Assembly (NCBI GenBank): GCA_905197955.1
Contig: CAJKAR010000014.1
Coordinates: 15,465 to 79,464, forward strand
DNA: 64,000 bases
Reading direction: 5' to 3'
DNA from: an uncultured Lentisphaeria bacterium
Lineage (GTDB): Bacteria; Verrucomicrobiota; Lentisphaeria; Victivallales; UBA1829
Made by a program: the position numbers and the translations under genes
Notes under the pieces: generated by a model
What the model saw: the letters and a program-made list of their open reading frames with translations, nothing else
Databases searched by the model: none
What the model was told of the DNA's origin: nothing
Part shown: piece after piece, positions 46,536-64,000 of the stretch
Layout of the letters: the number at the start of each line of letters is the position of its first letter
How positions within the stretch are numbered: the first letter of the stretch is position 1

Positions 46536-46613
46536 AAGAAATACGAGGAGCGGCGCGGAGTGAGATTTCTTCTCTGCGCGGCATGTCAGATGATGAGCAA
46601 ATTCAGCAACGGA

Positions 46614-51612: not shown

Positions 51613-51635
51613 GATGACGTGTGTCTCCTTGAAAA

Positions 51636-52391
51636 TTAGAATGGATTGATCTTATCCAGACTTTCTGAAACCAGAAAGAGCAGGCGGGTGGGCCAGGGAT
51701 AGAGCTGACTCCGGTTCAGCGCACTGACATGGCCGTCGAGAAATGCGATGCTGGCACAGTTCATGTGCCCGAGAAAAATACCGGCGGTTCCGCTTTCCGC
51801 AAAGTTGGAAAGTTCAAACTGATAACATCCGATTCCCTGGTATGTGCTGGCTTTGGAAAAAACGGTATCGGCAAGAACCGCCAGCTTGCCGGGTTGTTTT
51901 ACCTGTTTTGTCGTGAATCCCCAGCAGACATCCGGGAGATTGAAGTAGAAATTGTTTCCGAAATAGGGTTCTCTTCCCGCTGCGTTTCTGTAATTGCCCA
52001 TGCCGTAGCAATAACGGTAGATTTCCGATTTTATATCGGTTCCTGTATAGGGCTTTGTGCTCGGACAGATGGCGTTTTTCCGGTCCAGATATTTGTCCTG
52101 CATGATTTTGACCCAGGAAGCTCCCTTTTTTTTGTCAAACAGAATAATCTGTCCATCGTTGTCGGCATCATAGAAGAGACAGCTCTGCATGGTTTGTCTC
52201 AATCCGGAAAGGCACTGTATTCCCACCCCCTTCTGACGGGCTTTATTCAGTGCCGGAAGCAGAAGTGCCGCAAGAATTGCAATAATTGCAATAACGACAA
52301 GAAGTTCTATTAATGTAAAATGACTGCCGGTGATTCCGCGCTGCTTCTCCTGCCTTTTGCGCTCTGAGATTGTTTTTGATGTGATCTGCAT
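51636..52391 (-). CDS. Prepilin-type N-terminal cleavage/methylation domain protein, H-X9-DG family
   Basis: [32 protein letters not shown]; the H-X9-DG motif is HMNCASIAFLDG. ATG 52391 (AGGAGG upstream) is preferred to 52484, which would overlap the LacI gene. Confidence 0.85.
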   Translation of the reverse strand: MQITSKTISERKRQEKQRGITGSHFTLIELLVVIAIIAILAALLLPALNKARQKGVGIQCLSGLRQTMQSCLFYDADNDGQIILFDKKKGASWVKIMQDKYLDRKNAICPSTKPYTGTDIKSEIYRYCYGMGNYRNAAGREPYFGNNFYFNLPDVCWGFTTKQVKQPGKLAVLADTVFSKASTYQGIGCYQFELSNFAESGTAGIFLGHMNCASIAFLDGHVSALNRSQLYPWPTRLLFLVSESLDKINPF

Positions 52392-52428
52392 AATGTTCCT
52401 CCTGTTGGAAATTTGAAAAGCAAATGGG

Positions 52429-53469
52429 TTAGATTCCGCATGTTTTGCCGGATGTTGTTTCTGAATCTGGCTTTGGCTGCGCATCTTTGATTTCGGATGG
52501 GAAAAGATAACGGGCCGGAGCTGTTTTATTTTCCGTCTTTCCGGTCAGGATATCCAGTACGGCTTCTCCCATTTTTTCGAACGCCTGAACAACGGTGCCG
52601 ACCGGATAGTAAAGTTGACGCGCCAGAGTATTGCCGAATCCGAAGATCCGGCAGGAATCGGGGATCCGGATTCCGAATCGCAGAGCGGTAATCAGAACCT
52701 GGGCGGCGCGGTTGTCGTCGAAACAGATGAATGCCGTCGGGCGTTCTTCTTCCGTGAGGTGGAACCAGGATTCCAGATCCGCAAAATGTTCCACGGGATC
52801 ATGATGAGCGGAGATCCAGTGAGAATTGAGTTTCAGTCCGAATTCCTGGAGGCCGGCGGCGACGCCGTTGCAGCGTTCGACACTGTAACGGATATCATCT
52901 TCCGGCTTGACGACTGCAATTCGGCGATGTCCTTCCGCGAAGAGTTTCCGGACGATTTCTCTTGTGGCCGCCTGGTCGTCGGAATAGACCAGCGGAAAAT
53001 CATTCCGGCAACTGTCCTCGATATAGCAGAGAGCGATGTCGCGTGCTTTGCAGAAGTTTCCAATTTCCTCCTGAAGAAGCGGTGAAAAGGCAAAACAGGC
53101 GGCATAGCGGATATTGTACTTGATAAGTTCCTGCTGAACAAGTTCCAGATTGGACAGATTGCAGATTCGGACATTATATCCATGCTGTGCCGTTGCATTC
53201 AGAAGTCCGAGCAGGATTTCATTTGCCGCTGCGCCCCGGACTGCACTGTGACTGAATTCCAGCAGCAATGCAATTGTTTTGGAAAGTCCGGTCCGGATTT
53301 CCGCTGCAGCCTCGTTCCGGCTGTAACCGGATTCGATGACCGCTTGAAGAATTTTTGCCCGTGTTTCCGGTCGCAGAGCTTTTGCATGAGCGTGGTTGTT
53401 CAAGACCTGAGAGACCGCCGCTGTGCTGACTCCAGCTTTTTTTGCAATATCTGCAAGCGTTATGCGCAT
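52429..53469 (-). CDS. LacI-family transcriptional regulator
   Basis: MRITLADIAKKAGVSTAAVSQVLNN is a LacI HTH, followed by a PBP effector domain. Confidence 0.88.
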   Translation of the reverse strand: MRITLADIAKKAGVSTAAVSQVLNNHAHAKALRPETRAKILQAVIESGYSRNEAAAEIRTGLSKTIALLLEFSHSAVRGAAANEILLGLLNATAQHGYNVRICNLSNLELVQQELIKYNIRYAACFAFSPLLQEEIGNFCKARDIALCYIEDSCRNDFPLVYSDDQAATREIVRKLFAEGHRRIAVVKPEDDIRYSVERCNGVAAGLQEFGLKLNSHWISAHHDPVEHFADLESWFHLTEEERPTAFICFDDNRAAQVLITALRFGIRIPDSCRIFGFGNTLARQLYYPVGTVVQAFEKMGEAVLDILTGKTENKTAPARYLFPSEIKDAQPKPDSETTSGKTCGI

Positions 53470-54839
53470 GAAGAGGTCCTTTCCTTTTTCCGGTGGTTCG
53501 GCAGATAAGCGCCGATCTTGAGCAGAGCATCCTGAAGTTCCGATACCGGCAGTTCGCGGGGAGAAATCTTCCGTTCCGCAGCAAGCGCCGCCGCCATTCC
53601 TGCCGCCTGACCGGTGATGAAGCAGCCCGCCTGAACACGGAGAGACCCATGCATTCCGCGATCCGTACTGACACAGCGTCCGGCGGAAAGAACATTGTCC
53701 ACTTTTTGCGGAAGCAGGATCCGATAGGGAATTCCATAACTTTCCCCGGGCGTTCGATAGTGATAATGTTCGAAGAGAGAGGTTCCGGGATCCGGCTCCG
53801 AATCCGCCGGCGGACGGGTCCCGTGCAGATCAATCGGATAAGCGTAACGTCCGATCTCATCCTCGAAAACGGCCCGGCGGACAAAATCTTCCACTCCGAG
53901 CACATAGTCTCCGAGAATCCTGCGGGATTCCCGGATTCCGAGGGTCAGAGAGGTCCAGAGCATGTGCGCGTTTTCACATCCTGGGACATAGTTCCGATAG
54001 TATCGTTCGTATTCCAGAGCAAGTTTTCTTCCCTGGATCATGCCGCGGGTGACGGTGCGTTCGTCCCGTGCATCGATTCCGTAGACATGGCCGACATTCC
54101 CCCAGCCGGAATCCGCCACCGTGTGAAGGATTCCGGGCAATCCCGTATCGCGTTCGGAAAAGACTCCATCGTGATAGGCCTGCTTCAATGCTTTTCCATC
54201 GGTCCAGATCTCCTTGCGTGACCAGTCGATTCCGGACCAGAGGGAGCAGAGTGTCGCCGCCTGAGCCAATCCCTCCTCATCGCCGAATTCCACGGGAGCT
54301 CCCGCCATGGCGGCAAGATCTCCATCGCCGGTGGCATCGATAAACACTCCGGCTTTGATTGCGAAAACTCCGCTTTTTGCCGCACAGATGGCATGTGTGA
54401 CCCGGTTCCCTTCCATCTGCAAATCAATCAGAGAGGTATGGAATGTGAAATCCATGCCGGATTCTGCCGCCATTTCATCGTACACCCGTTTCAGGGATTC
54501 CGGATTGTAAATGAATCCGCCGATCTCAGAAGGATGACTGCCGTAACGCATCTCCGGCCCCGCTCCCCCTGAACGGAAAAGACGATCATAAACTTCTCTG
54601 CCGAATCCTCCGGCAAGAAAATGAATTCCATCGGTGGGCCGGCAGATGAATGGAATTCCAGCCGAGGTTCCCATGCCGCCGAAACCTCCAAGAGTTTCAA
54701 CAAGAAATACTTTTGCTCCGGCTCGCGCCGCTGTGACGGCGGCGGCCATACCAGCCGGACCGCCGCCCGCGACAAAAACATCCACAGAATCGCGAATCGG
54801 AAGTTGTCGGGTGTAGTCAAGTTTTTCCTGCATAGTCAT
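53460..54839 (-). CDS. FAD-dependent oxidoreductase
   Basis: VDVFVAGGGPAGMAAAVTAARAGAKVFLVE is the GxGxxG dinucleotide fold; 459 aa. It overlaps the LacI start by 10 nt. Confidence 0.75.
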   Translation of the reverse strand: MTMQEKLDYTRQLPIRDSVDVFVAGGGPAGMAAAVTAARAGAKVFLVETLGGFGGMGTSAGIPFICRPTDGIHFLAGGFGREVYDRLFRSGGAGPEMRYGSHPSEIGGFIYNPESLKRVYDEMAAESGMDFTFHTSLIDLQMEGNRVTHAICAAKSGVFAIKAGVFIDATGDGDLAAMAGAPVEFGDEEGLAQAATLCSLWSGIDWSRKEIWTDGKALKQAYHDGVFSERDTGLPGILHTVADSGWGNVGHVYGIDARDERTVTRGMIQGRKLALEYERYYRNYVPGCENAHMLWTSLTLGIRESRRILGDYVLGVEDFVRRAVFEDEIGRYAYPIDLHGTRPPADSEPDPGTSLFEHYHYRTPGESYGIPYRILLPQKVDNVLSAGRCVSTDRGMHGSLRVQAGCFITGQAAGMAAALAAERKISPRELPVSELQDALLKIGAYLPNHRKKERTSSCA

Positions 54840-54887
54840 AAGCCTCTGGCGTTTTTTTGAGTTAGTAAATCGTTTTATTAAAATTTA

Positions 54888-54915
54888 ATTATACAATAAA
54901 ATCTTAAAAAGTCAA
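54888..54915 (-). promoter_or_regulatory. Candidate sigma70 promoter of the FAD-oxidoreductase/LacI/prepilin/GH operon
   Basis: The minus strand reads TTGACT (54915-54910), 16 nt, TATAAT (54893-54888), about 48 nt upstream of ATG 54839. Confidence 0.55.
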
Positions 54916-55123
54916 GAGGGTATATCGTTTTTTTCTTTGTCGGGCGAAGAAAAAGGCAACTATCAGAGAGGTGTTTTTCCTATTCCGGACCGGTGCGCTG
55001 TCTGGAAGGAAGTCCGTTTCCCGCAAAAAACAGCCAGTAACAGTTCCGAAAGAGTTCTTTGTAAAAAATCGAAAAAAATCTATTTTCAATGCAACTTTTT
55101 TTCCTTTGAAACGTTTTTATAGT

Positions 55124-55133
55124 GAAAATTTTC
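55124..55133. promoter_or_regulatory. 10-bp perfect palindrome GAAAATTTTC, copy 1 (candidate regulator site upstream of the RiPP operon)
   Basis: The identical palindrome recurs at 55171-55180; TGAAAATTTTC is shared (11 nt). Confidence 0.3.
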
Positions 55134-55170
55134 TTCCGGACAGAAAATACTCTGTCATGGGGAGGAAAAT

Positions 55171-55180
55171 GAAAATTTTC
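55171..55180. promoter_or_regulatory. 10-bp perfect palindrome GAAAATTTTC, copy 2
   Basis: See copy 1. The centres are 47 bp apart, 143-199 bp upstream of ATG 55323. Confidence 0.3.
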
Positions 55181-55322
55181 AAAGGGAAAACGTCTCTGCC
55201 AATGGTACAACTCCTTTTCTTGAAAAGAAAATTATCACTTGTTTTTCTTTTAAGAACAGGATATGTTACCGCCGCAGTCGCTGTGTGGAAAAGAAACTCA
55301 TAACACGAAAAAGGAGGACCCT

Positions 55323-55640
55323 ATGGCTTGGACACAAGCAGAAATCGAAACATGTATCGAAAACTGCAAGAAGAAAGCTGCTGTTGATGCGGATTTCCGT
55401 AAGAAACTGCTCGCAGATCCCGTCGCTGCAGTAAAAGAGATCTCCGGCAAGGAGGTGCCGGCAGGATTCAAAATTAAAGTTCTCGAAAATGATCCGAGCT
55501 ACGATGCAACCTTCGTTCTTCCGCCGCTCGTTTCGGGAAATATTTCCGACAGCGAACTGGATGATGTTACCGCCGGAATCTGCGGTTTGCTGAGTTGCGG
55601 AATGAAGGCCTGCGCCACAGAGGGAAATGGATCAAAATAA
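55323..55640 (+). CDS. NHLP (nitrile hydratase-like leader peptide) family RiPP precursor 1; predicted core ICGLLSCGMKACATEGNGSK
   Basis: 105 aa; the leader ...KKAAVDADFRKKLLADPVAAVKEISGKEVPAGFKIKVLENDPSYDATFVLPPLVSGNISDSELDDVTAG matches the NHLP pattern and ends in a double-glycine-type AG. AGGAGG lies 6 nt upstream of ATG 55323; the track ORF's 5' extension was rejected. Confidence 0.88.
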   Translation: MAWTQAEIETCIENCKKKAAVDADFRKKLLADPVAAVKEISGKEVPAGFKIKVLENDPSYDATFVLPPLVSGNISDSELDDVTAGICGLLSCGMKACATEGNGSK

Positions 55641-55642
55641 TT

Positions 55643-55679
55643 ACAGAAACATCCGGTTTCGCAGAGACCCTGTTTCTGT
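55643..55679 (+). other. Stem-loop between precursor genes 1 and 2
   Basis: ACAGAAACA (55643-55651) pairs with TGTTTCTGT (55671-55679). The 19-nt loop can itself form a short helix. No U-tract follows. Confidence 0.5.
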
Positions 55680-55737
55680 GTTACGGAATAACTCAAACAT
55701 AGCAATCTGAAATCACTTAAATCAAGGAGTTCGAATT

Positions 55738-56055
55738 ATGACCTGGACACAGACAGAAATTGAAGCATGCATCGTCAACTGCAAGAAAAAAGCCGCCGTC
55801 GATGCTGATTTCCGTAAAAAACTGCTGGCGGATCCCGCTGCGGCAGTAAAAGAAATTTCTGGCAAGGAGATTCCAGCAGGATTCAAGATCAAAATCCTCG
55901 AAAACGATCCGGGCTATGATGCCACTTTCGTTCTCCCTCCGCTCGTTTCGGGAAATCTCTCCGATAAAGAACTCGATGAAGTGGCAGCCGGCATCTGCGG
56001 TTTGCAGACCTGCGCCATGGATGCGTGCGGCGTCGCCGGGAACGGATCAAAATAA
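55738..56055 (+). CDS. NHLP family RiPP precursor 2; predicted core ICGLQTCAMDACGVAGNGSK
   Basis: 105 aa; it is a paralogue of precursor 1 with the leader conserved and the core diverged. AAGGAG lies 8 nt upstream. Confidence 0.88.
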   Translation: MTWTQTEIEACIVNCKKKAAVDADFRKKLLADPAAAVKEISGKEIPAGFKIKILENDPGYDATFVLPPLVSGNLSDKELDEVAAGICGLQTCAMDACGVAGNGSK

Positions 56056-56106
56056 ATCCGTCGGAAAAACCTGTACCCGGAAAAATCAAATCAGGAGAAA
56101 AGAACC

Positions 56107-56418
56107 ATGGCTTGGACTCAACAGGAAATCAATGAGTGCATCGCAGCCTGCAAACAAAAGGCTGCAACAGATGCTCAGTTTCGTCAGAAACTGCTGAAGG
56201 ATCCGGGAGAGGCAATCCGGGAAATTTCCGGCAAGGAAATCCCGGCAGGATTCCGGATTAAAGTGCTGGAAAGCGATCCGAATTATGATGCGACATTCGT
56301 GCTGCCTCCTCCGATCTCCGGCAATCTTTCTGACAAGGATCTGGATGGTGTAACTGGCGGCAGTCTCGTCTGCCCGGTCGAGGTCTGTGCTGCAAACGCC
56401 TGCGGTTGGGATAAGTAA
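56107..56418 (+). CDS. NHLP family RiPP precursor 3; predicted core SLVCPVEVCAANACGWDK
   Basis: 103 aa; the leader ...DAQFRQKLLKDPGEAIREISGKEIPAGFRIKVLESDPNYDATFVLPPPISGNLSDKDLDGVTGG ends in GG. AGGAG lies upstream. Confidence 0.88.
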   Translation: MAWTQQEINECIAACKQKAATDAQFRQKLLKDPGEAIREISGKEIPAGFRIKVLESDPNYDATFVLPPPISGNLSDKDLDGVTGGSLVCPVEVCAANACGWDK

Positions 56419-56443
56419 TTGCAATGCCGGAGGGACTTCCGCG

Positions 56444-57739
56444 ATGATGTGGTCAAGATATAATCGGGTATTCCATTCGCAAAAACGGGGATGGCTCCTC
56501 TACAACGCCCTCTCCAACACGTTTCTTGCGCTGCCGGATTCGTTCGGCAAAACGTTCGAAGCTCTGCGCGCCGGGGAGGAGTTCCTCTGTGAGGATCCCG
56601 GTATGACATTGCAGCTGATTGCGGCAAAAGCGCTTGTCGATCCCGGCGAAGATGATCGGCTGCGCGATGTGCTCCGAATGAAACGGCGTATGGCGGATTT
56701 CAGCGAACGCATTTTGCTGCTGACCATTGCTCCGACCCGGAACTGCAACTTCGCATGTCCTTACTGCTTCGAGGAAAACCGCGCAGGGATCAACATGAGC
56801 CGCGAAACGGAAGAGGAGCTGGTTCGCTTTGCCGAACGCTTCCAGCCGGGACAGCTGTTCGGCGTGACCTGGTTCGGAGGAGAACCCCTGCTGCGCTTTG
56901 AACAGATCCGGCGCCTCTCTGAACGCTTCCAGTCCATGGATTTCAAACACTACCGGGCCTCCCTGATCACCAACGGATATCTGCTGGATGCGGACAAGGC
57001 GGCACGGCTGGATGAACTGGCGATCCAGGAGGTGCAGATCACTCTTGACGGTCCTGAAGAAGTCCACGACCGCCGCAGAACCCTTGTCTCCGGGGGGCCG
57101 ACCTTCCGGAAGATTCTGGGAAATATTGATACTCTGTTTGCCTCCGCATGGACGGGACATCTGCAGCTCAGGGTCAATGTGGACCGGACCAATGCGGAAG
57201 ATTACCATCGGATCTACGAATTTCTGTACAGCAGATATCCGGAAAAGAGGGATCGTCTGCATGTCTATCCGGGAATTGTGCATGCGATGGGCAAGGAGAA
57301 TCCGGATACCGTCTGTCTTTTCAATGTTGACGAGGCCGCGGATTTCCAGATCGAACAGTTCCGCCGGTATGGGGTGCGGAACCAGACGTTCTATCCTCTC
57401 CGTAAATTGTTCAACTGCATCGCGGCAAGACGGAACGGATATGTCGTCGGCCCGGGAGGAGAACTTTACAAGTGCTGGAACGACATCGGAATCGAAAAGC
57501 GAATCGTTGGCTATGTGGATCCCCGGAAAATGTGGAACAACGAATTGCTCGCAGAGTGGCTGGAAGGACAGAATGCTCTGAATGATCCGGAGTGTCTTGC
57601 ATGTGGGCTGATGCCGATCTGTGACGGAGGCTGTCCGGCTCAGCGCCGGGAAAAGGCTCCTCACTGTTCCCGTTACCGGAATCGCCTGCCGGAACTGCTG
57701 GAGGCTCATTATGACTCTGTGCGGAATGAAAAAAATTGA
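56444..57739 (+). CDS. Radical SAM / SPASM-domain peptide maturase
   Basis: The CX3CX2C motif is TRNCNFACPYCFE. The full seven-Cys SPASM pattern is CIAARRNGYVVGPGGELYKC (CX13GX4C), CLACGLMPICDGGC (CX2CX5CX3C) and a trailing C in KAPHC. About 105 aa precede the cluster motif. ATG 56444 has GGAGG upstream. Confidence 0.85.
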   Translation: MMWSRYNRVFHSQKRGWLLYNALSNTFLALPDSFGKTFEALRAGEEFLCEDPGMTLQLIAAKALVDPGEDDRLRDVLRMKRRMADFSERILLLTIAPTRNCNFACPYCFEENRAGINMSRETEEELVRFAERFQPGQLFGVTWFGGEPLLRFEQIRRLSERFQSMDFKHYRASLITNGYLLDADKAARLDELAIQEVQITLDGPEEVHDRRRTLVSGGPTFRKILGNIDTLFASAWTGHLQLRVNVDRTNAEDYHRIYEFLYSRYPEKRDRLHVYPGIVHAMGKENPDTVCLFNVDEAADFQIEQFRRYGVRNQTFYPLRKLFNCIAARRNGYVVGPGGELYKCWNDIGIEKRIVGYVDPRKMWNNELLAEWLEGQNALNDPECLACGLMPICDGGCPAQRREKAPHCSRYRNRLPELLEAHYDSVRNEKN

Positions 57740-58688
57740 AATCGAGCCGCTTCATCTTTTCAATCTGAAGCACCATCGGTCATTTTTCACGGCGCGTCAG
57801 CAGGCGCTGTTCGGCGATTCCATGCCGGGCGGAAAGCATCTGTTTTTCGGCGCGCGCTGCGGGGAGGGGGCCGCTGGAGTGATCTGGGGGGGGCCGGACA
57901 GGGATCCGACGGGGATGTTTCTGTTTCATCTCTATGTGGCGGAGGAGTTCCGGCGCTGCGGAATTGGACGGATTTTGCTGGAAAAACTCTGTGCAGCTGC
58001 GTCGGAGGAGGGGTTCCGGAAAGTTTATGTGCGTTTCCGTCGCAGGAACAGTCAGGAAAGCGCGTTGTGGTGCCTGCTGAAGGGTTTTCCCGGTCCCTGT
58101 GTCCGACTGGAGACGGTTTTCCGGCTGGAGCTTCCCTCGGGAGCCGAACGGGAGCTGCGGGTGCGGACCCGGACCGGCCGCTGGCAGATACTGCCGCTGG
58201 AAACGGTTGTCGCAGGGCTCGGAGAGGAAAAACGGATGGAAATGGTGGAACGGGAACGCCGTTTCCTGAAAGGACTCGAACATCTGTCGCTGACGGATCC
58301 GGCGGAATGGAGAAAATTTCTCCGTGGAGATGTCTTTCTTGCGCCGTTTGGCGGCGAGTCCGGACTGCCCCGGTTCGGACGGGCATGCGTGGAACGGGAA
58401 TCGGGCCGTCTCGCCGGATGGATTTCCGGAGAGATCAAAGAGGGGGAACTGCATGTGCGCCGCGCTTTTGTCGAACCGGAGTTCCGGGGCGCGGAAGTCA
58501 TGGCGCTGTTGGCAGAAGAAGTCTATGCGTGGATGCACCGGACCGGCGGAACGGCCCGGTGGGAAGTGAAATATTGGAATCAGGTGTTTCAGCGGGGATG
58601 TCTCCGCTACGCCCGACGGTTGAAAATAGGCGAATCCATCGAGGATTGCGTCAAAATAATCCCTGCAGGAACAGGAGAGGAAAAATGA
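57711..58688 (+). CDS. Two-domain GNAT-family acyltransferase (N-terminal domain intact, C-terminal domain degenerate)
   Basis: LFHLYVAEEFRRCGIGRILLEKL is GNAT motif A (R-x-x-G-x-G). The second half, LHVRRAFVEPEFRGAEVMALLAEEV, is GNAT-like but lacks GxG. GGAGG lies 6 nt upstream of ATG 57711, and the gene overlaps the rSAM gene by 29 nt. Confidence 0.7.
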   Translation: MTLCGMKKIEIEPLHLFNLKHHRSFFTARQQALFGDSMPGGKHLFFGARCGEGAAGVIWGGPDRDPTGMFLFHLYVAEEFRRCGIGRILLEKLCAAASEEGFRKVYVRFRRRNSQESALWCLLKGFPGPCVRLETVFRLELPSGAERELRVRTRTGRWQILPLETVVAGLGEEKRMEMVERERRFLKGLEHLSLTDPAEWRKFLRGDVFLAPFGGESGLPRFGRACVERESGRLAGWISGEIKEGELHVRRAFVEPEFRGAEVMALLAEEVYAWMHRTGGTARWEVKYWNQVFQRGCLRYARRLKIGESIEDCVKIIPAGTGEEK

Positions 58689-59026
58689 ACAAAATCGAAG
58701 AAAATCTGGTAAAATGGAAAGAGATTGAAGCAAAGGTTATTGCGCGCGCTCTGACGGATGAGGCCTTCCGCACACGTCTGGAACAGGATCCCCGTGAAAC
58801 CATCGAAACCGAGCTCCAGTGCAAAATCAGCGGCGATGTGACATTCAAAGTCCGCGAAGAAGAAAATCCCGGAGAAATGACGATCCTTCTGCCGAAACTC
58901 CCCAAAAAAGAGACGGGGGAACAGCTTTCCGATCGCGAAATCGACGATATCGTTGCGGCTGGAAATATCGGAATTTCGGTCGGTATTGTCACCACGGATA
59001 TCGTCCTGGTCAAGGGAATCGTCTGA
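58685..59026 (+). CDS. NHLP family RiPP precursor 4 (proteusin-like); predicted core NIGISVGIVTTDIVLVKGIV
   Basis: 113 aa; the leader ...ARALTDEAFRTRLEQDPRETIETELQCKISGDVTFKVREEENPGEMTILLPKLPKKETGEQLSDREIDDIVAAG is followed by a Cys-free beta-branched hydrophobic core. The ATG overlaps the GNAT stop (ATGA at 58685-58688). It is embedded in the longer track ORF 58067..59026. Confidence 0.8.
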   Translation: MNKIEENLVKWKEIEAKVIARALTDEAFRTRLEQDPRETIETELQCKISGDVTFKVREEENPGEMTILLPKLPKKETGEQLSDREIDDIVAAGNIGISVGIVTTDIVLVKGIV

Positions 59027-59046
59027 GGCCCCGAAGGAGAACTTGA

Positions 59047-60393
59047 TTGAACTTCCCCGATTACAAGCGTTTTTTGGAATTCTACATGGGCGACGGCTCC
59101 TTCCGAGAGCGTTTTGATCGTGCTCCTGCCGCCGCTCTGCAGGATGCGGATCTGCATCCGGAGATGCCCCTGGAGTTCCTGCAGGCGGTGGCCGCCGGCT
59201 GCCGCAGCCGTGATTTCCGGCAGGTGACGGAGCATTTTCCTGAGGTGCTGGCAGTTCTGCGTCATTTTGCGGAAGAGCAGGAGGAGTGCAATCCGTTCAC
59301 CGTGCGCTGTCGGAAAGAGTGTTCTTCCCCCAATGCGCGTTTTGAAGCATGGCGGGAACGGAAACGGCAGGGGAACCGGGCAGTTCTCCAGCCGCTGTAT
59401 TTTGACCGGGCGTTTAATATCGCGGCGGCTTTCGAGCTTGGAGTCGGATGTTCCGGACAGTGCCGGTTCTGCTGTTTTGACGCGCCGCCTCTGCGCGAGA
59501 ATTTCCGGTACACTCCGGAAAATCGTGCATTATGGCGGGATATCCTCTCCCTTTTCCGGGATCGTTTTGGCGGTCGGGCTGGAGCGGCGGCTCTCTACTG
59601 GGCTACCGATCCTTTTGACAATCCGGATCTGGAACTGTTTTATGCGGATTTTTATGAAACGAATCAGGTCTGGCCGCCGATCACCTCGCGCTGGCCGCTT
59701 CGAGATCCCGCTCGAACTCGCCGTTTTGCGGAAGAAGGAAGGAAACATGGACAGCCATGCTGCCGTTTTTCCATCACGCAACGCGGAGAGCTGCGGAGAT
59801 TCTTCCAGGAGTTTTCCGCAGCGGAAACGATGGATTGGAGTCTTGTTCTGAACAATCCGGAATCGCTGAACTGCTATTCAATCAGCGGACGCGCACGGGA
59901 AAGGGATCCCGAAACGCCGGAAAAGTATCAGGAGGGAACGACAAGCTGCTGTCTTTCCGGATTTCTGGTGAATCTCTGCCGCAGAACGGTTGCGCTGGTA
60001 TCGCCCTGTGAACCGGGGGAGGCGGATCCGTTTGGATATCATCAGTGGGATGCGGCGGAGTTCCGCGATGCGGGGGAACTGGAGCAGGTGCTTGAAAAAA
60101 TGCAGAAGGAGTTCTTTCTCCAGGGACCGGAGGAACTGGCACGTCTGCGACTTTCTCCGGAATGGAACTTTACGATTTCGGGGGGAAGGGCGGAATTTGT
60201 CTCCCGCTATCTGGTACGCCGTTTTGAGGTGTCGCCGTCGGAACAGAATCTGCTGGAAAAGTTGAAAGCCGGAATTTCCCGGCAGGAATTTGAACAGGAG
60301 TTCGGCGGAATGCTTTCGCTGTTCGGGAACGTGCATGCACTGCTCGACTCCCTGTGGAAATTCGGAATGTTGTCGGAGGAGGAAGCATGTTGA
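59047..60393 (+). CDS. Radical SAM-like protein of unassigned subfamily
   Basis: 448 aa. GVGCSGQCRFCCFD contains CX3CX2C with the usual aromatic before the third Cys. Further Cys pairs are QPCCRF and TSCCLSGFLVNLC...SPC. The TTG start at 59047 lies 7 nt after AAGGAG; ATG 59086 is an alternative. Confidence 0.55.
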   Translation: MNFPDYKRFLEFYMGDGSFRERFDRAPAAALQDADLHPEMPLEFLQAVAAGCRSRDFRQVTEHFPEVLAVLRHFAEEQEECNPFTVRCRKECSSPNARFEAWRERKRQGNRAVLQPLYFDRAFNIAAAFELGVGCSGQCRFCCFDAPPLRENFRYTPENRALWRDILSLFRDRFGGRAGAAALYWATDPFDNPDLELFYADFYETNQVWPPITSRWPLRDPARTRRFAEEGRKHGQPCCRFSITQRGELRRFFQEFSAAETMDWSLVLNNPESLNCYSISGRARERDPETPEKYQEGTTSCCLSGFLVNLCRRTVALVSPCEPGEADPFGYHQWDAAEFRDAGELEQVLEKMQKEFFLQGPEELARLRLSPEWNFTISGGRAEFVSRYLVRRFEVSPSEQNLLEKLKAGISRQEFEQEFGGMLSLFGNVHALLDSLWKFGMLSEEEAC

Positions 60394-62321
60394 ATCCCGT
60401 TGATATCACGCTGGTGAATATGCCGTTTGCGATGCCCCTGGTGGCTCCGCTGGGAATGAATGTGCTGTGCGGAGCGCTGCGCAAAGCCGGATTGAGGGTC
60501 CGCTGCCGTTTTGCCAATGTTGATTTTGCGGAACGGGTTCCGGAGGAGCTGTATGACTATCCGGCATCGAACGGATTGAATGTGGATGTGATGCTTGGAG
60601 ACTGGCTGTTTTCGGAATCGCTGTTCGGGGCGGATCCGGAACGGGACCGTCGCTTTCTGGAGATGTTGAAGGAGGAAAACGAGCATGACCGGCTGGTCTG
60701 GAACCGTCGTTACCGGTCGCTGGACGATCTTCTGCGCGATCTGCCGCTGCTGAAACGCGAAGCGGTCCGCTGCGTGGAGAAAACCGCGGCAGAACTGGCG
60801 GATGGTTCCACCCGGATTGTCGGGTGTTCAAGTACTTTTTTCCAGCGTCTGGCCTCTCTGGCTCTTCTGAAGCGGGTTCGGGAGCTGAATCCGGAAGTCG
60901 TGACCTTTCTGGGCGGATCCGATTGCGAAAGCGAAGCCGGGATGGAGGCGGTTCTCCGGTTTCCGTTTCTCGACTATGTGTTCTGCGGAGAAGGGGATCT
61001 GACCGTGCCGGAAATGGCTCTCCGGATTGTGCGGAACGAGCGTTCCGCCGCCCTGCCGTTCGGTGTGTTCGACCGGGCAAAGGCGGAACGGGGAATCCCG
61101 GAAGTTGCATGTGTCCCGGGGGAACTGATCGCGGAACCCGACCCCGCGGACTATTATGAACGAATGAACGGGAGCCGTTTGAACCGGGCATCGGTCCGGA
61201 AATATTTTCTGGAGAGTTCGCGCGGCTGCTGGAAGGGGCAGAAGCAGCACTGCAGTTTCTGCGGACTGAACGGAGGACGAATCGCCTACCGGCGCAAAGA
61301 TCCCGAGCGTGTTCTGGCGGAACTGCGCCGAGGTTACCGGGAATTCGGCTGCCGGCTTTTCCTGACTTCCGATACCGTGCTGGATCTGAACCGGATGCGC
61401 GCTCCGCTCCGCACCTTCGGAGAGGAAACGCCCGATACGGTCATCAGCTTTGAAACGGTTTCAACCCTGACCGAAGAGCAGGTGCGGTTTCTTGCCGACA
61501 GCGGTGTGATGGTTATTCAGAGCGGAATCGAAACGCTTCATCCGAATCATATCCGCCTTCTGAACAAAGGCAACGATACGCTGTCAAGCATTGCACTCCT
61601 GAAATTCACACTGGAGAACCGCATTCAAGTTCTCTGGAACATGCTCAGCGGCATACCGGGCGATTCTCCCGAAGAATATCGCTGGGTGAAGGAACTGGTT
61701 CCGAAAATCATTCATCTGCCGGGACCGAACTGGGGGGCGATCCGCTTCGACCGCTTCAGTTTGTACTGGAAGGAACCGGAACGTTTCAATCTCCGTCTGG
61801 AACCGATGAAAGGATATCGCATTCTTATGCCGGAAGGTTCGGTTTCACTGGATCGCTGGGCGCTCTTCTACGACAATCGGAACCCCGGAGCCTGCACGCC
61901 GCAGAAGGAGATCGCCGATGTGCGCAAAACAGTCGATGAATGGTATCATGATTCTCATCCGGCGAAATATCATCTGGAATTTGCCGAACCGGATCTTCTC
62001 CGTGATACCCGTCCCTGCGCGGCGGTTCCCGAATACCGGCTCAGCCGGGCGGAACAGGCGATCCTCCAGGCGGCACGCTCTCCGGCAGATCGGACCGCTG
62101 TGGAAGCTGCGACTGGAAATTCTATGAAAATCATTGAAAAATTGAAGGAATACGGTTATCTTATTGAAGTGGAAAATCGACTTCTGGCGCTTCCGCTGAT
62201 TCCTCCTTCCGCGGAACGGATCGCGAAAAGCAGACTGCGCTACCGGAGTCTTTTCCGGGGACATACACCACCTGCCGCGGCCGTGCCGGAGGATACTCCG
62301 CTGATCAGGGTCGGCTCTTAA
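60387..62321 (+). CDS. Cobalamin-binding-domain radical SAM enzyme (RiPP-maturation C-methyltransferase-like, class B)
   Basis: 644 aa. ITLVNMPFAMPLVAPLGMNVLCGALRKAGL is the typical B12-domain start of this family. ESSRGCWKGQKQHCSFCGLNG has CX7CX2C spacing, as I recall for the TIGR03975-type family. GGAGGAGG lies upstream of ATG 60387, which overlaps the previous stop by 7 nt. Confidence 0.75.
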   Translation: MLNPVDITLVNMPFAMPLVAPLGMNVLCGALRKAGLRVRCRFANVDFAERVPEELYDYPASNGLNVDVMLGDWLFSESLFGADPERDRRFLEMLKEENEHDRLVWNRRYRSLDDLLRDLPLLKREAVRCVEKTAAELADGSTRIVGCSSTFFQRLASLALLKRVRELNPEVVTFLGGSDCESEAGMEAVLRFPFLDYVFCGEGDLTVPEMALRIVRNERSAALPFGVFDRAKAERGIPEVACVPGELIAEPDPADYYERMNGSRLNRASVRKYFLESSRGCWKGQKQHCSFCGLNGGRIAYRRKDPERVLAELRRGYREFGCRLFLTSDTVLDLNRMRAPLRTFGEETPDTVISFETVSTLTEEQVRFLADSGVMVIQSGIETLHPNHIRLLNKGNDTLSSIALLKFTLENRIQVLWNMLSGIPGDSPEEYRWVKELVPKIIHLPGPNWGAIRFDRFSLYWKEPERFNLRLEPMKGYRILMPEGSVSLDRWALFYDNRNPGACTPQKEIADVRKTVDEWYHDSHPAKYHLEFAEPDLLRDTRPCAAVPEYRLSRAEQAILQAARSPADRTAVEAATGNSMKIIEKLKEYGYLIEVENRLLALPLIPPSAERIAKSRLRYRSLFRGHTPPAAAVPEDTPLIRVGS

Positions 62322-62333
62322 ACAGGATATAGA

Positions 62334-63665
62334 ATGAACAGAAATCTTTTCCGGAAAAATGCAATGCTCAAAGCGGCATCGCCATTTGAGTTGAATCGTC
62401 AGCTTTCGATTTTCAACGGGCGCGAAGCGCTGGCACTTCTGGTGCTGGGAATCACGGTGATTGCTCTGCTGGCATGGGGAATTCTCGGCGTGATTTACGA
62501 ACGGGTCAGCGGAAGCGGCATTGTGATGCTGCAAAGTCAGTTCGATACAATTCAGGCGCCCGCCGGAGGAGTGCTGATCTCCTTTGACATTGAAACGGGA
62601 GATTTTGTCAAGCGCGGGCAGATGGTCGGACGGCTCTATTCGTTTGCCGATCTGGAAAATCTGAGGGAGAACTTTCAGAAATTGAAAATGCTCCAGAGCA
62701 ATCTGGAGGAGGTGCGCCGTCATACCGAAGGTCTCCAGAAAGGAAACCGGACCCATATCCGGAACATGACCGGAGTGCTGGATGAAACAGTCAAACGGCT
62801 CGACAAGGAACTGGAATGGCTCGGGGAGTTCGTGAAAAAGGGGAAAGCCCTTGCCGAACGCGGCGCAATCTCGCAGAAACAGTGGCACGAGTATCAGGAA
62901 CAGTATCATACCAAGCTCAAAAACCGTTCGGATTACCTGCTCAAAAAACTGGAGGAAAGCAATTCGTTTTCCGAGACGGAATTCACTCTTGCCAAAGAGG
63001 TTATGTCGATGGAGGCCGAAGTGAAGTCGGCTTTGTTCGAAGTCGAGCAGCTCCGCAACAAACTGGAATACAATACACGGATCGTGAGCACCCATTCCGG
63101 AACCGTGACCAGCGTTAACTATACGCCGGGCTCCATTGTGACGGCGGAAGCGACGCTCGCCAGCCTGATCGACCTCGATGACGAAACCGATGAAACCTGG
63201 GAACTTTATGCCTATTTTTCCGTTGCCGACAGTAAAAAGATCCGTCCCGGAATGAGCGCGATCATAACACCTTCCTCGGTCAAAGCCGAACGCGACGGTT
63301 CCATTCGCGGCACCGTCACCCATGTCGGCACTTACATCCTTCCGGTGGAATCCATTGACCGCACATTTCGCAATGCTGCGTTTGCCCAGTATCTGCTCAA
63401 GGAATGTGCGAATATGCCGGTCGAGGTCCGCATTCTGATGTCCCGGGATCGGAACTCCCCGAACGGTTTCCGCTGGACCTCCGGTTCTGGACCGGATATC
63501 AGAATCACTGCGGGAACTCTCTGTTCCGCCAGTGTGGTCGTGGAGAAGGATCCGCCGCTTGAATTGGTTTTTTCCGGACTGCGCAAATTCATGTTCGGCA
63601 GGGGCGTCATGGAAGAGTTCCAGTTGAAAAATGCCCGGACCGGCGCAGGAGGATCCGCCGAATGA
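62334..63665 (+). CDS. HlyD-family membrane-fusion / bacteriocin secretion adaptor protein
   Basis: 443 aa. It has an N-terminal TM (ALALLVLGITVIALLAWGILGVI), a lipoyl-like IQAPAGGVLISFDIETGDFVKRGQMVGRL, a long coiled-coil and a C-terminal beta-barrel. Confidence 0.8.
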   Translation: MNRNLFRKNAMLKAASPFELNRQLSIFNGREALALLVLGITVIALLAWGILGVIYERVSGSGIVMLQSQFDTIQAPAGGVLISFDIETGDFVKRGQMVGRLYSFADLENLRENFQKLKMLQSNLEEVRRHTEGLQKGNRTHIRNMTGVLDETVKRLDKELEWLGEFVKKGKALAERGAISQKQWHEYQEQYHTKLKNRSDYLLKKLEESNSFSETEFTLAKEVMSMEAEVKSALFEVEQLRNKLEYNTRIVSTHSGTVTSVNYTPGSIVTAEATLASLIDLDDETDETWELYAYFSVADSKKIRPGMSAIITPSSVKAERDGSIRGTVTHVGTYILPVESIDRTFRNAAFAQYLLKECANMPVEVRILMSRDRNSPNGFRWTSGSGPDIRITAGTLCSASVVVEKDPPLELVFSGLRKFMFGRGVMEEFQLKNARTGAGGSAE

Positions 63666-64000
63666 TCTTCCGGAAGAAGCGGGTTGACTGCCCGATGGTT
63701 CTGCAGATGGAGGCCGCTGAATGCGGCGCCGCTGCGCTGTCAATGGTGATGTCGTACCACGGAGTGATTGTTCCGCTGGAACGTCTCCGTGATGAATGCG
63801 GCGTTTCCCGCGACGGCAGCAAGGCGTCCAGTCTGCTCAAAGTCGCCCGCAGCTACCATTTCAAAGCGCAGGGGTATCGGGAGGAGGAACTCGATGCGCT
63901 GAATCATCACGCTCTGCCCATGATCCTGTTCTGGAATTTCAATCATTTTGTGGTTTACACGGGGCGCAAAGGCAGAAAGTTCTGCATCAATGATCCGGCG
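63662..64000 (+). CDS. Peptidase-C39-domain bacteriocin ABC exporter, 3'-partial (runs off window end)
   Basis: MIFRKKRVDCPMVLQMEAAECGAAALSMVMSYHG... contains the catalytic Q...C of C39, and ...NFNHFVVY contains the catalytic His. The ATG overlaps the HlyD stop (ATGA). The frame stays open to base 64000, and the ORF is not in the ORF track because it has no stop. Confidence 0.85.
   Translation, partial: MIFRKKRVDCPMVLQMEAAECGAAALSMVMSYHGVIVPLERLRDECGVSRDGSKASSLLKVARSYHFKAQGYREEELDALNHHALPMILFWNFNHFVVYTGRKGRKFCINDPA

What the first reader, a model, noticed from the sequence alone, without database searches (positions are those of the whole stretch)
55323..64000. Multi-precursor NHLP-leader RiPP cluster with three radical-SAM enzymes, a tandem GNAT and dedicated C39/HlyD export
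Ten co-directional genes run from 55323 to the window edge. They are separated by 0-97 nt and have four start/stop overlaps (57711/57739; ATGA at 58685-58688; 60387/60393; ATGA at 63662-63665), so they form one operon-like unit. In order they are three tandem nitrile-hydratase-like leader peptide (NHLP) precursors with 3-Cys cores, a radical SAM/SPASM enzyme and a two-domain GNAT. Then come a fourth NHLP precursor with a Cys-free Val/Ile/Gly/Thr core, a CX3CX2C radical SAM protein and a cobalamin-type radical SAM enzyme (CX7CX2C). An HlyD adaptor and a C39-peptidase ABC exporter close the series. Each family is known individually from proteusin, sactipeptide/ranthipeptide and NHLP-bacteriocin systems. 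I know of no characterised cluster that places two chemically unrelated core classes on the same leader family with this enzyme set. It sits next to glycan-utilisation loci of a PVC-type genome. The product chemistry cannot be deduced from sequence alone. The cluster is cut by the window edge, so a second ABC subunit, immunity genes or a regulator may follow.
Basis: partly seen in the sequence, partly recalled or inferred. Interest (0 to 1): 0.9.

Follow-up and report, generated by a model that had tools for sequence, protein, structure and literature searches.

The report
Two-module NHLP peptide gene cluster, Victivallales
This is a real, uncharacterised gene cluster from a Victivallis-type bacterium (PVC group) that should make two kinds of heavily modified secreted peptides, cysteine-bridged probably acylated ones and a short hydrophobic D-amino-acid/methylated one, through a shared exporter; every part belongs to a known enzyme family.

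Summary
Ten co-directional genes run from 55323 to 64000, with gaps of 12-97 nt and four overlaps. All predicted families are recovered by HMMs.

The organism is a Victivallales bacterium (Lentisphaerota). The same cluster is present in the cultured type strain Victivallis vadensis DSM 14823. Its NHLP and transporter genes were already listed in the 2010 paper that defined the NHLP family.

Related contigs show the full unit continues past the window edge: C39-ABC1, ABC2 and a membrane-anchored periplasmic-binding-fold protein, then unrelated genes.

The cluster is two modules sharing one exporter:
- **Module 1:** leader subtype 1, cores with Cx4Cx4C and an invariant C-terminal Lys, a SPASM radical SAM enzyme and a rare tandem GNAT. 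It occurs on its own in a distant metagenomic relative, with no epimerase or methyltransferase between GNAT and HlyD.
- **Module 2:** leader subtype 2, a 20-residue Val/Ile core under strong purifying selection, a PoyD-like epimerase and a PoyC-like B12 C-methyltransferase with Cx7Cx2C.

The predicted products are thioether-bridged, Lys-acylated peptides plus a short D-amino-acid, C-methylated hydrophobic peptide. No characterised product was found. I rate it a new variant of known kinds: a good genome-mining lead, not a categorically new system.

The parts
54860..55322 (+). AT-rich (about 44% GC) intergenic region upstream of the operon, the probable promoter region
   Evidence: Composition drop. 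Sigma-70-like sites lie at 54857-54884(+) and 54915-54888(-). No Rfam riboswitch was found. Promoter function is inferred.
55323..55640 (+). Precursor A1: NHLP leader subtype 1, predicted cleavage after ...DDVTAG, core ICGLLSCGMKACATEGNGSK (Cx4Cx4C, C-terminal Lys)
   Evidence: TIGR03793 51.6 bits against cutoff 50.9. The core pattern is conserved across loci.
55655..55679 (+). Stem-loop followed by a T-rich tail just after A1, a possible attenuator
   Evidence: Terminator-like scan hit at 55655-55669. The scan found no more such sites than shuffled sequence gives, so this is weak.
55738..56055 (+). Precursor A2: NHLP leader subtype 1, core ICGLQTCAMDACGVAGNGSK
   Evidence: TIGR03793 58.3 bits. 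It is 80% identical in DNA to A1.
56107..56418 (+). Precursor A3: NHLP leader subtype 1, cleavage after GG, core SLVCPVEVCAANACGWDK. C-x2-E/D, C-x2-N, C-x2-D and the terminal K are invariant across loci.
   Evidence: TIGR03793 55.8 bits. Core comparison.
56444..57739 (+). Radical SAM/SPASM peptide maturase (431 aa), the predicted thioether-forming enzyme for A1-A3
   Evidence: PF04055 and TIGR04085 are above cutoff. The best named families are Clo7bot, TIGR04463, FlmE/OhkG, CefB, geopeptide and PapB, all far below their equivalog cutoffs. The best solved structure by sequence is 5wgg/5why, E = 8e-17; I recall this entry as the thioether synthase CteB. CX3CX2C is at residue 101. It is 46% identical to the rSAM of the stand-alone module in L022.
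57711..58688 (+). Tandem (two-domain) GNAT acyltransferase (325 aa), the predicted Lys N-acyltransferase of module 1
   Evidence: PF00583 is matched in two stretches. The AF2 model has pLDDT 77, and its best Foldseek hits are tandem GNATs (2wpw, 9en3, VipF, MAB_4324). The family is very small: 12 hits at E<=1e-10 among 1.84 billion representatives.
58685..59026 (+). Precursor A4: NHLP leader subtype 2, cleavage after ...VAAG, core NIGISVGIVTTDIVLVKGIV
   Evidence: TIGR03793 53.3 bits. The leader is only 28% identical to A1. The core shows 10 synonymous against 0 non-synonymous codon differences versus L013, and 14 against 2 versus L005.
59047..60393 (+). PoyD-like radical SAM peptide epimerase (448 aa, TTG start)
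   Evidence: TIGR04517 E = 5e-91, 305.8 bits over model positions 4-445 of 446, just under the 325-bit cutoff. CX3CX2C is at residue 135. It is 32% identical over 98% of its length to a Trichormus variabilis ATCC 29413 protein, and other hits are named 'RiPP maturation amino acid epimerase'.
60387..62321 (+). PoyB/PoyC-type cobalamin-dependent radical SAM C-methyltransferase (644 aa)
   Evidence: TIGR03975 618 bits against cutoff 282. Cx7Cx2C is at residue 281, the motif described as unique to PoyC (PMC11285071). The Pfam B12-binding hit is weak.
62334..63665 (+). NHLM-type HlyD membrane-fusion protein (443 aa)
   Evidence: TIGR03794 464 bits against cutoff 156.
63662..64000 (+). N-terminal 112 aa (C39 peptidase domain, with a Cys in ...EAAECGAAAL...) of the NHLM ABC1 peptidase/permease/ATPase, cut by the window edge
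   Evidence: Peptidase_C39 E = 7e-28. TIGR03796 E = 3e-50 on the fragment. The full-length 723-aa homologue in L003 scores 1007 bits against cutoff 853. Translation; that this Cys is the catalytic one is my reading of the motif.

Best explanation
This is one operon of a Victivallales (Lentisphaerota) bacterium. It encodes a multi-peptide, bacteriocin-like RiPP system built from two biosynthetic modules that share one NHLM-type exporter.

**Module 1 (55323-58688).** Three tandemly duplicated NHLP precursors carry leader subtype 1. Their 18-20-residue cores have three Cys spaced five apart and an invariant C-terminal Lys. A SPASM radical SAM enzyme modifies them; I infer three intramolecular Cys-S to carbon thioether bridges. 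In the A3 type these most likely run from each Cys to the invariant Glu/Asp, Asn and Asp three residues downstream. A rare tandem GNAT then acts; I infer acyl-CoA-dependent N-acylation of a core Lys, most likely the C-terminal one. The acyl group (acetyl or fatty acyl) is unknown.

**Module 2 (58685-62321).** One NHLP precursor carries a different leader subtype and a nearly invariant 20-residue Val/Ile/Gly/Thr core. A PoyD-like radical SAM epimerase converts several L residues to D. A PoyC-like B12 radical SAM enzyme C-methylates some side chains, probably Val or Ile at the beta carbon.

**Export.** The C39 domain of ABC1 removes the leaders after the GG/AG motif. ABC1 and ABC2 (outside the window) export the cores together with the HlyD adaptor. 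A conserved membrane-anchored periplasmic-binding-fold protein closes the unit.

**Shown:** gene content, family assignments, motifs, the conserved architecture and boundaries, selection on the cores, and the existence of module 1 alone.

**Inferred:** all the chemistry, the substrate assignment of the GNAT, and an antimicrobial or signalling role.
For: **Family assignments and motifs:**

**Conserved architecture.** The same gene order, from Cys precursors through SPASM, GNAT, the hydrophobic precursor, epimerase and C-MT to at least HlyD, is found in every related locus retrieved. GNAT identity runs from 99% down to 29%, and the loci include V. vadensis DSM 14823. Where the contig reaches far enough (L003, L008, L013-L017), ABC1, ABC2 and the binding-fold protein follow. 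The searches were anchored on three different genes: GNAT, ABC2 and the epimerase. Flanking genes differ beyond the binding-fold protein and upstream of the first precursor, which sets the boundaries.

**Two modules.**
- Leaders A1 and A4 are 28% identical.
- The distant metagenomic contig L022 carries a subtype-1 precursor with three Cys and a terminal Lys, a SPASM rSAM (46% identical), a tandem GNAT, and then HlyD directly, with no A4, epimerase or C-MT between them.

**GNAT assigned to the Cys peptides.**
- Every intact Cys core recovered ends in Lys.
- The Lys in the A4 core is Thr in L021, although the GNAT is kept there.

**Purifying selection on the A4 core:**; core against leader identity.

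**Precedents.**
- PapB forms Cys-Xn-Asp/Glu thioethers (PMC9413430).
- The epimerase AerD and the B12 C-methyltransferases AerC, PoyB and PoyC act on Val/Ile-rich proteusin cores, and PoyC has Cx7Cx2C (PMC9060474 and PMC11285071).
- GNATs in NHLP clusters acylate Lys/Orn side chains before leader removal, and KspN can acylate a C-terminal Lys (PMC8784127 and PMC13647313).
Against: - No chemistry was or could be tested here.
- The SPASM enzyme reaches no equivalog cutoff (for example 197 bits against 600 for Clo7bot), so its reaction and linkage sites are extrapolated.
- In the A1/A2-type cores the residues three positions after each Cys are not conserved, so the C-x2-acceptor reading holds cleanly only for A3-type cores.
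- The epimerase scores slightly below the TIGR04517 cutoff.
- The GNAT shows no significant sequence similarity to the one other NHLP-cluster GNAT I could compare. Its relation to the selidamide GNATs is untested.
- L022 is a 3.7-kb fragment, so an epimerase module elsewhere on that genome cannot be excluded.
- In one lineage (L005-L007, L012) several genes appear broken, so the cluster is not always maintained.
Confidence: 0.72

Rival explanations
1. One integrated pathway: all four enzymes act on all four precursors. For example, the epimerase would also put D-residues into the Cys peptides, or the SPASM enzyme and GNAT would also act on A4. The products would then be hybrids rather than two separate classes.
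For: All genes are translationally coupled in one operon. The combination is strictly conserved in the Victivallales-type loci. PapB-type enzymes tolerate D-residues (PMC9413430).
Against: There are two leader subtypes only 28% identical. Module 1 occurs without module 2 genes between GNAT and HlyD in L022. A4 has no Cys, and its Lys is not invariant.
Confidence: 0.1
2. The tandem GNAT is not a maturase. It is a self-protection or regulatory enzyme, for example one that acetylates a peptide amine to keep it inactive inside the producer. Alternatively it acts on the new N-terminus after leader removal.
For: GNAT-based self-immunity and N-terminal acylation after leader removal are both known in RiPP systems; N-terminal cases are listed in PMC13647313. 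No dedicated immunity gene is evident in the cluster.
Against: The gene overlaps the SPASM gene and the A4 gene. It stays next to the SPASM enzyme in the stand-alone module L022. Leader removal is coupled to export by the C39-ABC, which leaves a cytoplasmic GNAT little access to a free N-terminus. The invariant C-terminal Lys fits a side-chain acceptor.
Confidence: 0.13
3. The peptides are signalling molecules (quorum sensing or development) rather than antimicrobials. The conserved periplasmic-binding-fold protein would be their receptor.
For: A membrane-anchored Peripla_BP_6 protein always closes the unit, and one also accompanies an unrelated NHLM exporter. From my own knowledge, some ranthipeptides have been linked to quorum sensing in clostridia. 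The near-invariant A4 core fits a specific receptor as well as it fits a specific target.
Against: No kinase or response regulator is conserved next to the cluster. The closest characterised relatives of module 2 are membrane-active toxins (PMC9060474). A hydrophobic D/L, C-methylated 20-mer is more typical of membrane insertion.
Confidence: 0.15

Closest known systems
Polytheonamide/aeronamide-type proteusins (poy and aer clusters: PoyD/AerD epimerase, PoyB/PoyC/AerC B12 C-methyltransferases)
   Same: NHLP leader. A radical SAM epimerase homologue (TIGR04517, E = 5e-91). A TIGR03975 C-methyltransferase with PoyC's Cx7Cx2C motif. A Val/Ile/Gly/Thr-rich core.
   Different: The core is 20 residues rather than about 45-49, it is not Asn-rich, and it contains Asp and Lys. 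There is no N-methyltransferase (PoyE/AerE), no LanM-like dehydratase (PoyF/AerF), no hydroxylase and no AerH-type protease. Export and cleavage are by C39-ABC instead. The host is a Lentisphaerota bacterium. The epimerase is only about 32-36% identical to its nearest outside relatives.
Ranthipeptides/sactipeptides (PapB/freyrasin, CteB/thermocellin, QhpD-type Cys-Asp/Glu thioethers; NCBIfam Clo7bot, TIGR04463, CefB 'Cys-every-fifth')
   Same: A SPASM radical SAM enzyme with the full CX2CX5CX3C auxiliary-cluster motif. Its best solved relative is 5wgg/5why, which I recall as CteB. The cores have regularly spaced Cys, each followed by Asp/Glu/Asn in the A3 type.
   Different: It is far below every equivalog cutoff. 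The leader is a roughly 85-residue NHLP domain rather than a short leader. The spacing is C-x2-acceptor rather than PapA's C-x3-D. The enzyme is paired with a tandem GNAT.
Selidamides (KspN/PhaN/NpuN GNAT-acylated NHLP/Nif11 lipopeptides)
   Same: A GNAT encoded in an NHLP cluster with double-Gly leaders and C39-ABC export. Lys is available in the core. Acylation is expected before leader removal.
   Different: The selidamide GNATs act on the most N-terminal Lys/Orn and are accompanied by LanM and an arginase. Here the conserved Lys is C-terminal, the partner is a SPASM enzyme, and there is no arginase or LanM. Clade membership of this GNAT is untested, and the acyl donor is unknown.
NHLM (NHLP/Nif11 microcin) export cassette of Haft et al. 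2010 (TIGR03794/03796/03797)
   Same: HlyD, ABC1 and ABC2 are all above their equivalog cutoffs. The V. vadensis copy of this very cluster was among the genomes used in that paper.
   Different: Nothing essential differs. The trailing Peripla_BP_6 protein is an extra conserved gene that is not part of the published cassette.

Membership tests
NHLP-leader (proteusin-type) RiPP precursors, TIGR03793 | Leader matches the NHLP model above the curated cutoff | tested here: met
   A1 51.6, A2 58.3, A3 55.8 and A4 53.3 bits against cutoff 50.9.
NHLP-leader (proteusin-type) RiPP precursors, TIGR03793 | Double-Gly-type (GG/AG) leader-core junction, with an adjacent C39 peptidase ABC exporter | tested here: met
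   ...VTAG|I...VAAG|I...VTGG|S and ...VAAG|N. C39 domain with a Cys in ...AAECG.... TIGR03794 is above its cutoff; TIGR03796 and TIGR03797 are above theirs in the full-length homologues.
PoyD-type radical SAM peptide epimerases, TIGR04517 | Score at or above the curated cutoff (325 bits) | tested here: not met
   305.8 bits (E = 5e-91), aligned end to end over model positions 4-445 of 446. The V. vadensis orthologue scores 300. This is a near miss, so I treat the enzyme as a divergent homologue.
PoyD-type radical SAM peptide epimerases, TIGR04517 | CX3CX2C radical SAM motif, and a gene adjacent to an NHLP precursor with an aliphatic core | tested here: met
   CSGQCRFC at residue 135. The gene lies 20 nt downstream of A4.
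PoyD-type radical SAM peptide epimerases, TIGR04517 | Irreversible L-to-D epimerisation of core residues | not testable with these tools
   Needs co-expression in D2O, or Marfey analysis.
RiPP B12-radical SAM C-methyltransferases, TIGR03975 (PoyB/PoyC type) | Score above the curated cutoff, with the Cx7Cx2C motif | tested here: met
   618.3 bits against 281.85. CWKGQKQHCSFC. The motif is described for PoyC in PMC11285071.
RiPP B12-radical SAM C-methyltransferases, TIGR03975 (PoyB/PoyC type) | N-terminal cobalamin-binding domain | tested here: inconclusive
   Pfam B12-binding scores 28.2 bits, below the gathering score of 32.1.
Channel-forming polytheonamide/aeronamide class | Core of about 45-49 residues, Asn N-methyltransferase, and N-terminal dehydratase/protease set | tested here: not met
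   The core is 20 residues. No PoyE/AerE, PoyF/AerF or AerH homologue is present in the unit, whose boundaries are defined.
Ranthipeptide/sactipeptide SPASM maturases | Radical SAM core plus a SPASM domain with auxiliary-cluster cysteines | tested here: met
   PF04055 67 bits and TIGR04085 53 bits against cutoff 27. C-x2-C-x5-C-x3-C (CLACGLMPICDGGC) is read from the translation.
Ranthipeptide/sactipeptide SPASM maturases | Membership of a named equivalog family (Clo7bot TIGR04334, TIGR04463, CefB NF038107, PapB NF047865, SCIFF TIGR03974) | tested here: not met
   197/600, 192/525, 155/600, 101/340 and 74/425 bits.
Ranthipeptide/sactipeptide SPASM maturases | Cys-S to carbon thioether formed in the core | not testable with these tools
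   Only the invariant Cys triad and the conserved downstream Asp/Glu/Asn in A3-type cores speak for it.
Selidamide-type RiPP GNAT acyltransferases | A GNAT-fold enzyme encoded in an NHLP/Nif11 cluster, with Lys/Orn in the core | tested here: met
   PF00583 in two stretches. Tandem-GNAT fold. Invariant core Lys.
Selidamide-type RiPP GNAT acyltransferases | Placement in the KspN/PhaN/NpuN clade, and fatty-acyl transfer to a side-chain amine | not tested
There is no significant BLAST similarity to the GNAT of another NHLP cluster, L018. The chemistry is untestable here.

The most novel reading that the evidence does not exclude
The system is an obligate multi-component weapon of a gut Lentisphaerota bacterium. 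Small thioether-stapled, Lys-lipidated peptides would act together with a ribosomally made, gramicidin-like 20-residue D/L, C-methylated beta-helical peptide that dimerises to form a membrane channel. This would be the first 'mini-polytheonamide' and the first thioether-plus-GNAT lipopeptide on an NHLP leader. It would explain why the two modules and the invariant core are kept together across the order.
Probability: 0.12. Interest if true: 0.8.

Novelty: new variant of a known kind. Interest (0 to 1): 0.5.

Why it matters
If the predicted chemistry holds, the cluster would give three things:
- A minimal, 20-residue substrate and enzyme pair for PoyD/PoyC-type epimerisation and C-methylation. 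That would be far easier to handle than the 49-residue polytheonamide system.
- A new SPASM-plus-tandem-GNAT combination on NHLP leaders, possibly yielding stapled lipopeptides.
- A first natural product from Lentisphaerota.

It is directly testable because V. vadensis DSM 14823 is a cultured type strain. None of this changes a concept, though. It extends known RiPP logic: leader-guided modules mixed and matched around a shared exporter.

Tried and rejected
- **Riboswitch or other structured RNA upstream of the operon:** the Rfam E-value scan of 54600-56500 gave only a spurious miRNA hit.
- **Literature on FlmE/OhkG and CefB:** the search returned only unrelated papers.
- **GNAT against solved structures by sequence:** nothing better than E = 0.07. 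Only the fold search was informative.
- **Names for distant GNAT relatives:** none of the clusters carries a name or organism.
- **Supplementary tables of the selidamide paper:** not held, so I could not check whether this cluster was among its 184 GNAT-containing BGCs.
- **Similarity of the window GNAT to the GNAT of the lipopeptide-type NHLP cluster L018:** not significant by BLAST.
- **A4 Lys as the GNAT target:** rejected as the main hypothesis, because L021 has Thr there yet keeps the GNAT.
- **A plain alternating D/L register for A4 read from the Gly positions:** Gly sits at positions 3, 7 and 18, which fits neither register fully, so no epimerisation pattern is claimed.
- **Nitrile hydratase subunits as an explanation for the small ORFs:** rejected. 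Scores are 16-24 bits against a cutoff of 250, and each ORF is a leader plus a GG-type site plus a core.

Full report
**1. Observation**

ORF listing and junction reading give:
- A1 55323-55640
- A2 55738-56055
- A3 56107-56418
- SPASM radical SAM 56444-57739
- GNAT 57711-58688
- A4 58685-59026
- second radical SAM 59047-60393 (TTG start)
- B12 radical SAM 60387-62321
- HlyD 62334-63665
- C39-ABC from 63662 to the window edge

Intergenic gaps are 97, 51, 25, 20 and 12 nt. There are four overlaps: 29 nt, ATGA, 7 nt and ATGA. Eight of the ten genes have a GGAG-type ribosome-binding site upstream; HlyD has a weaker AGGA and A3 AGGAGA. An identical public contig carries the same ten gene calls. 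A 460-nt AT-rich spacer with promoter-like sites precedes A1. No riboswitch was found there.

**2. Family assignments**

*NCBIfam and Pfam*
- All four small proteins pass the NHLP leader model TIGR03793.
- The first enzyme is a radical SAM/SPASM protein. PF04055 and TIGR04085 are above their cutoffs. Its best matches are peptide maturases (Clo7bot, TIGR04463, FlmE/OhkG, CefB, geopeptide, PapB), but all are far below their equivalog cutoffs.
- Its closest solved relative by sequence is 5wgg/5why, E = 8e-17. I recall that entry as the thioether synthase CteB.
- The third enzyme matches the PoyD-type epimerase model TIGR04517 end to end. E = 5e-91 and 305.8 bits, just below the 325-bit cutoff.
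- The fourth is a clear TIGR03975 RiPP C-methyltransferase (618 bits). It has the Cx7Cx2C motif that the literature describes as peculiar to PoyC (PMC11285071).
- HlyD is TIGR03794 (464 bits).
- The truncated last gene is the C39 domain of TIGR03796.

*GNAT*
- It has two Pfam GNAT stretches.
- An AlphaFold model (pLDDT 77) finds tandem-GNAT proteins as its best structural matches.
- The N-terminal domain keeps the R-x-x-G-x-G acyl-CoA motif (RRCGIG), read from the alignment. The identity of that motif is my own knowledge.

**3. Organism and prior sighting**

A scan of one genome per species found the same GNAT in Victivallis vadensis DSM 14823 (74% identity) and in Victivallales MAGs. Victivallis belongs to Lentisphaerota in the PVC group. 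The V. vadensis locus has the same gene order, and its small proteins and epimerase hit the same models.

Haft et al. 2010 defined the NHLP family. That paper lists V. vadensis ATCC BAA-548 with three consecutive NHLPs and the three transporter genes a few genes downstream (PMC2887384). That is evidently this cluster. The paper does not discuss the maturases.

I found no paper linking Victivallis to proteusins, polytheonamides or a RiPP product. The library does not hold most subscription-journal papers.

**4. Full extent of the unit**

Searches were anchored on three different genes: the GNAT, ABC2 and the epimerase. Every related contig they retrieved shows the same order:
1. two or three Cys-core NHLPs
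2. SPASM rSAM
3. tandem GNAT
4. hydrophobic-core NHLP
5. epimerase
6. C-MT
7. HlyD
8. ABC1
9. ABC2
10. a roughly 410-residue membrane-anchored Peripla_BP_6 protein

. ABC1 and ABC2 pass the TIGR03796 and TIGR03797 equivalog cutoffs.

Beyond the binding-fold protein the genes differ between lineages. One has an SSF transporter, LacI and a heparinase; another has lyxose isomerase and a PfkB kinase. The upstream genes differ too. The unit is therefore about 15 kb, and the window holds the first 8.7 kb. No regulator or obvious immunity gene follows.

Identity between the window and the most distant members is 59-63% for the SPASM enzyme, 29-40% for the GNAT, 45-58% for the epimerase and 53-62% for the C-MT. 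The architecture has therefore been kept over considerable divergence.

**5. Two modules, not one enzyme set on one leader**

- The leaders of A1-A3 and of A4 both belong to TIGR03793 but are only 28% identical.
- The GNAT family is tiny. An exhaustive profile search of 1.84 billion representative proteins gave 12 hits at E<=1e-10.
- One distant full-length relative (P0097) was located on a 3.7-kb metagenomic contig (L022).
- That contig encodes a subtype-1 NHLP precursor with core IASCGRFHAPDGCGLFTTCNRDNAGK (three Cys, terminal Lys). It then encodes a SPASM enzyme 46% identical to the window's, the tandem GNAT, and directly the NHLM HlyD.
- No hydrophobic precursor, epimerase or C-methyltransferase lies between GNAT and HlyD there.

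Module 1 (Cys precursors, SPASM, GNAT) is therefore a unit in its own right. In the Victivallales, a module 2 (A4, epimerase, C-MT) sits between it and the exporter. The nearest outside relative of the epimerase (36% identity) lies in a typical multi-module NHLP/Nif11 cluster with LanM and another radical SAM enzyme. This shows that such mixing is ordinary for this RiPP class (see also PMC8784127).

**6. What the cores say**

*Cys cores.* All have Cys at a spacing of five, and every intact one ends in Lys.

| Type | Pattern |
|---|---|
| A1/A2 | I-C-G-[LM]-x-[ST]-C-[AG]-M-x-A-C-...-K |
| A3 | x-x-x-C-x-x-[ED]-x-C-A-x-N-x-C-x-x-D-K |
| Third type, in other loci | CGS[YH]AC[DS]PHACG..PK |

In the A3 type, an acidic or amide residue lies invariantly three positions after each Cys. 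This resembles the Cys-Xn-Asp/Glu thioether motifs of PapB substrates (PMC9413430). It is the basis for predicting C4-E7, C9-N12 and C14-D17 bridges. In the A1/A2 type the corresponding positions vary, so the linkage there is open.

*A4 core.* The sequence NIGI[SA]V[GS][IVC][VI]T[TS]DIVLV[KT][GA]I[VA] is more conserved than its leader: 17 of 20 residues against 60% leader identity in L015. Codon differences are overwhelmingly synonymous: 10 to 0 against L013 and 14 to 2 against L005. That is strong purifying selection on the mature peptide.

*GNAT target.* The A4 Lys is Thr in L021, which keeps its GNAT, while the C-terminal Lys of the Cys peptides is invariant even in L022. I therefore assign the GNAT to module 1, with the C-terminal Lys as the likeliest acceptor. 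Precedent exists: NHLP-cluster GNATs acylate Lys/Orn side chains before leader removal, and KspN can use a C-terminal Lys (PMC8784127 and PMC13647313). The acyl group cannot be predicted.

**7. Mechanism proposed**

- The SPASM enzyme makes up to three thioether rings in A1-A3.
- The GNAT acylates a Lys.
- The epimerase introduces D-residues into A4, and the B12 enzyme C-methylates some of its aliphatic side chains. This follows AerD/AerC and PoyB/PoyC (PMC9060474 and PMC11285071).
- The C39 domain cuts after GG/AG (a Cys is present in ...AAECG...).
- ABC1, ABC2 and HlyD export the products.
- The role of the binding-fold protein is unknown. A similar gene sits beside the HlyD of an unrelated NHLM cluster (L018), so it may be a general accessory of these exporters.

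Whether the peptides are toxins or signals, and whether they act together, is not decidable from sequence.

**8. Comparison and novelty**

Each enzyme belongs to a known kind. The exporter is the canonical NHLM cassette. Module 2 is a stripped-down relative of the polytheonamide/aeronamide machinery, with a core less than half as long and without the N-methyltransferase, dehydratase, hydroxylase or protease. It is not a member of the channel-forming class as defined.

Module 1 combines a SPASM enzyme that fits no named equivalog family with a very rare tandem GNAT on an NHLP leader. I found no characterised example of that pairing, nor of the two modules together.

I therefore rate the locus a new variant of known kinds.
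- The cluster type has been visible since 2010.
- It sits in a cultured type strain.
- Modular mixing on NHLP leaders is the rule.

Interest is moderate (0.5). It is a well-defined, experimentally accessible genome-mining target, with a small chance of yielding a gramicidin-like ribosomal peptide or a multi-component stapled lipopeptide system.

Noticed in passing
L003 12638-12764; L013 12718-13947; L015 12700-13935; L016 12538-13761; L017 12694-13929; L018 5625-6764: A membrane-anchored Peripla_BP_6/ANF_receptor-fold protein of about 410 residues always follows ABC2, overlapping it or within about 20 nt, and marks the 3' boundary of the unit. A related gene sits next to the HlyD of an unrelated NHLM cluster (L018). 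It may be a recurrent accessory of NHLM exporters and is not part of the published cassette. Its function is unknown.
   Followed up: partly
L005, L006, L007, L012 (e.g. L005 2760-3749, 7385-10875): In one lineage, seen in four assemblies, the GNAT is split (220 + 81 aa), HlyD is in three fragments, ABC1 is split (254 + 455 aa) and the third Cys precursor is truncated. The rSAM genes, A4 and ABC2 look intact. This is either cluster decay or a recurrent assembly error.
   Followed up: partly
L018 13018-20342: The closest outgroup ABC2 (42% identity) belongs to a different NHLP cluster. It has a subtype-1-like leader, a roughly 300-residue two-stretch GNAT, a ketosynthase, two short-chain reductases, a small ORF in the position of a possible carrier protein, and a phosphopantetheinyl transferase. 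It looks like a lipopeptide pathway that makes its own acyl chain.
   Followed up: no
window 55655-55679 (+): A short GC-containing stem-loop followed by a T-rich stretch lies directly after the first precursor gene. It may be an attenuator that sets precursor-to-enzyme stoichiometry. The terminator scan as a whole was not enriched over shuffled sequence.
   Followed up: no
window 55322-56405: The three Cys-precursor genes are tandem DNA duplicates, 80% and 64% identical to the first copy over 300 nt. Copy number varies between related loci (two or three, one sometimes truncated).
   Followed up: partly
window 40188-54839: The upstream context is carbohydrate-related: two LacI-family regulators, a GH39-like 962-residue protein, fused sugar ABC transporter components and an FAD-dependent oxidoreductase. 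There is also a protein with a prepilin-type N-terminus ([24 protein letters not shown], 51636-52484, - strand), which I recall as typical of PVC genomes. None of these is conserved next to the cluster in other genomes.
   Followed up: partly
L019 6991-16337: The nearest outside relative of the epimerase (36% identity) lies in a cluster with four NHLP precursors, a Nif11 precursor, a LanM-type enzyme and another radical SAM enzyme. This is another example of several modification modules around NHLP/Nif11 leaders.
   Followed up: no
window 61845-63743 (-) and other long antisense ORFs, e.g. 56453-57709 (-): Very long ORFs run antisense to the HlyD/C-MT genes and the SPASM gene (632 and 418 codons). 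They have no family support and overlap well-supported + strand genes. They are most likely by-products of composition rather than genes.
   Followed up: no
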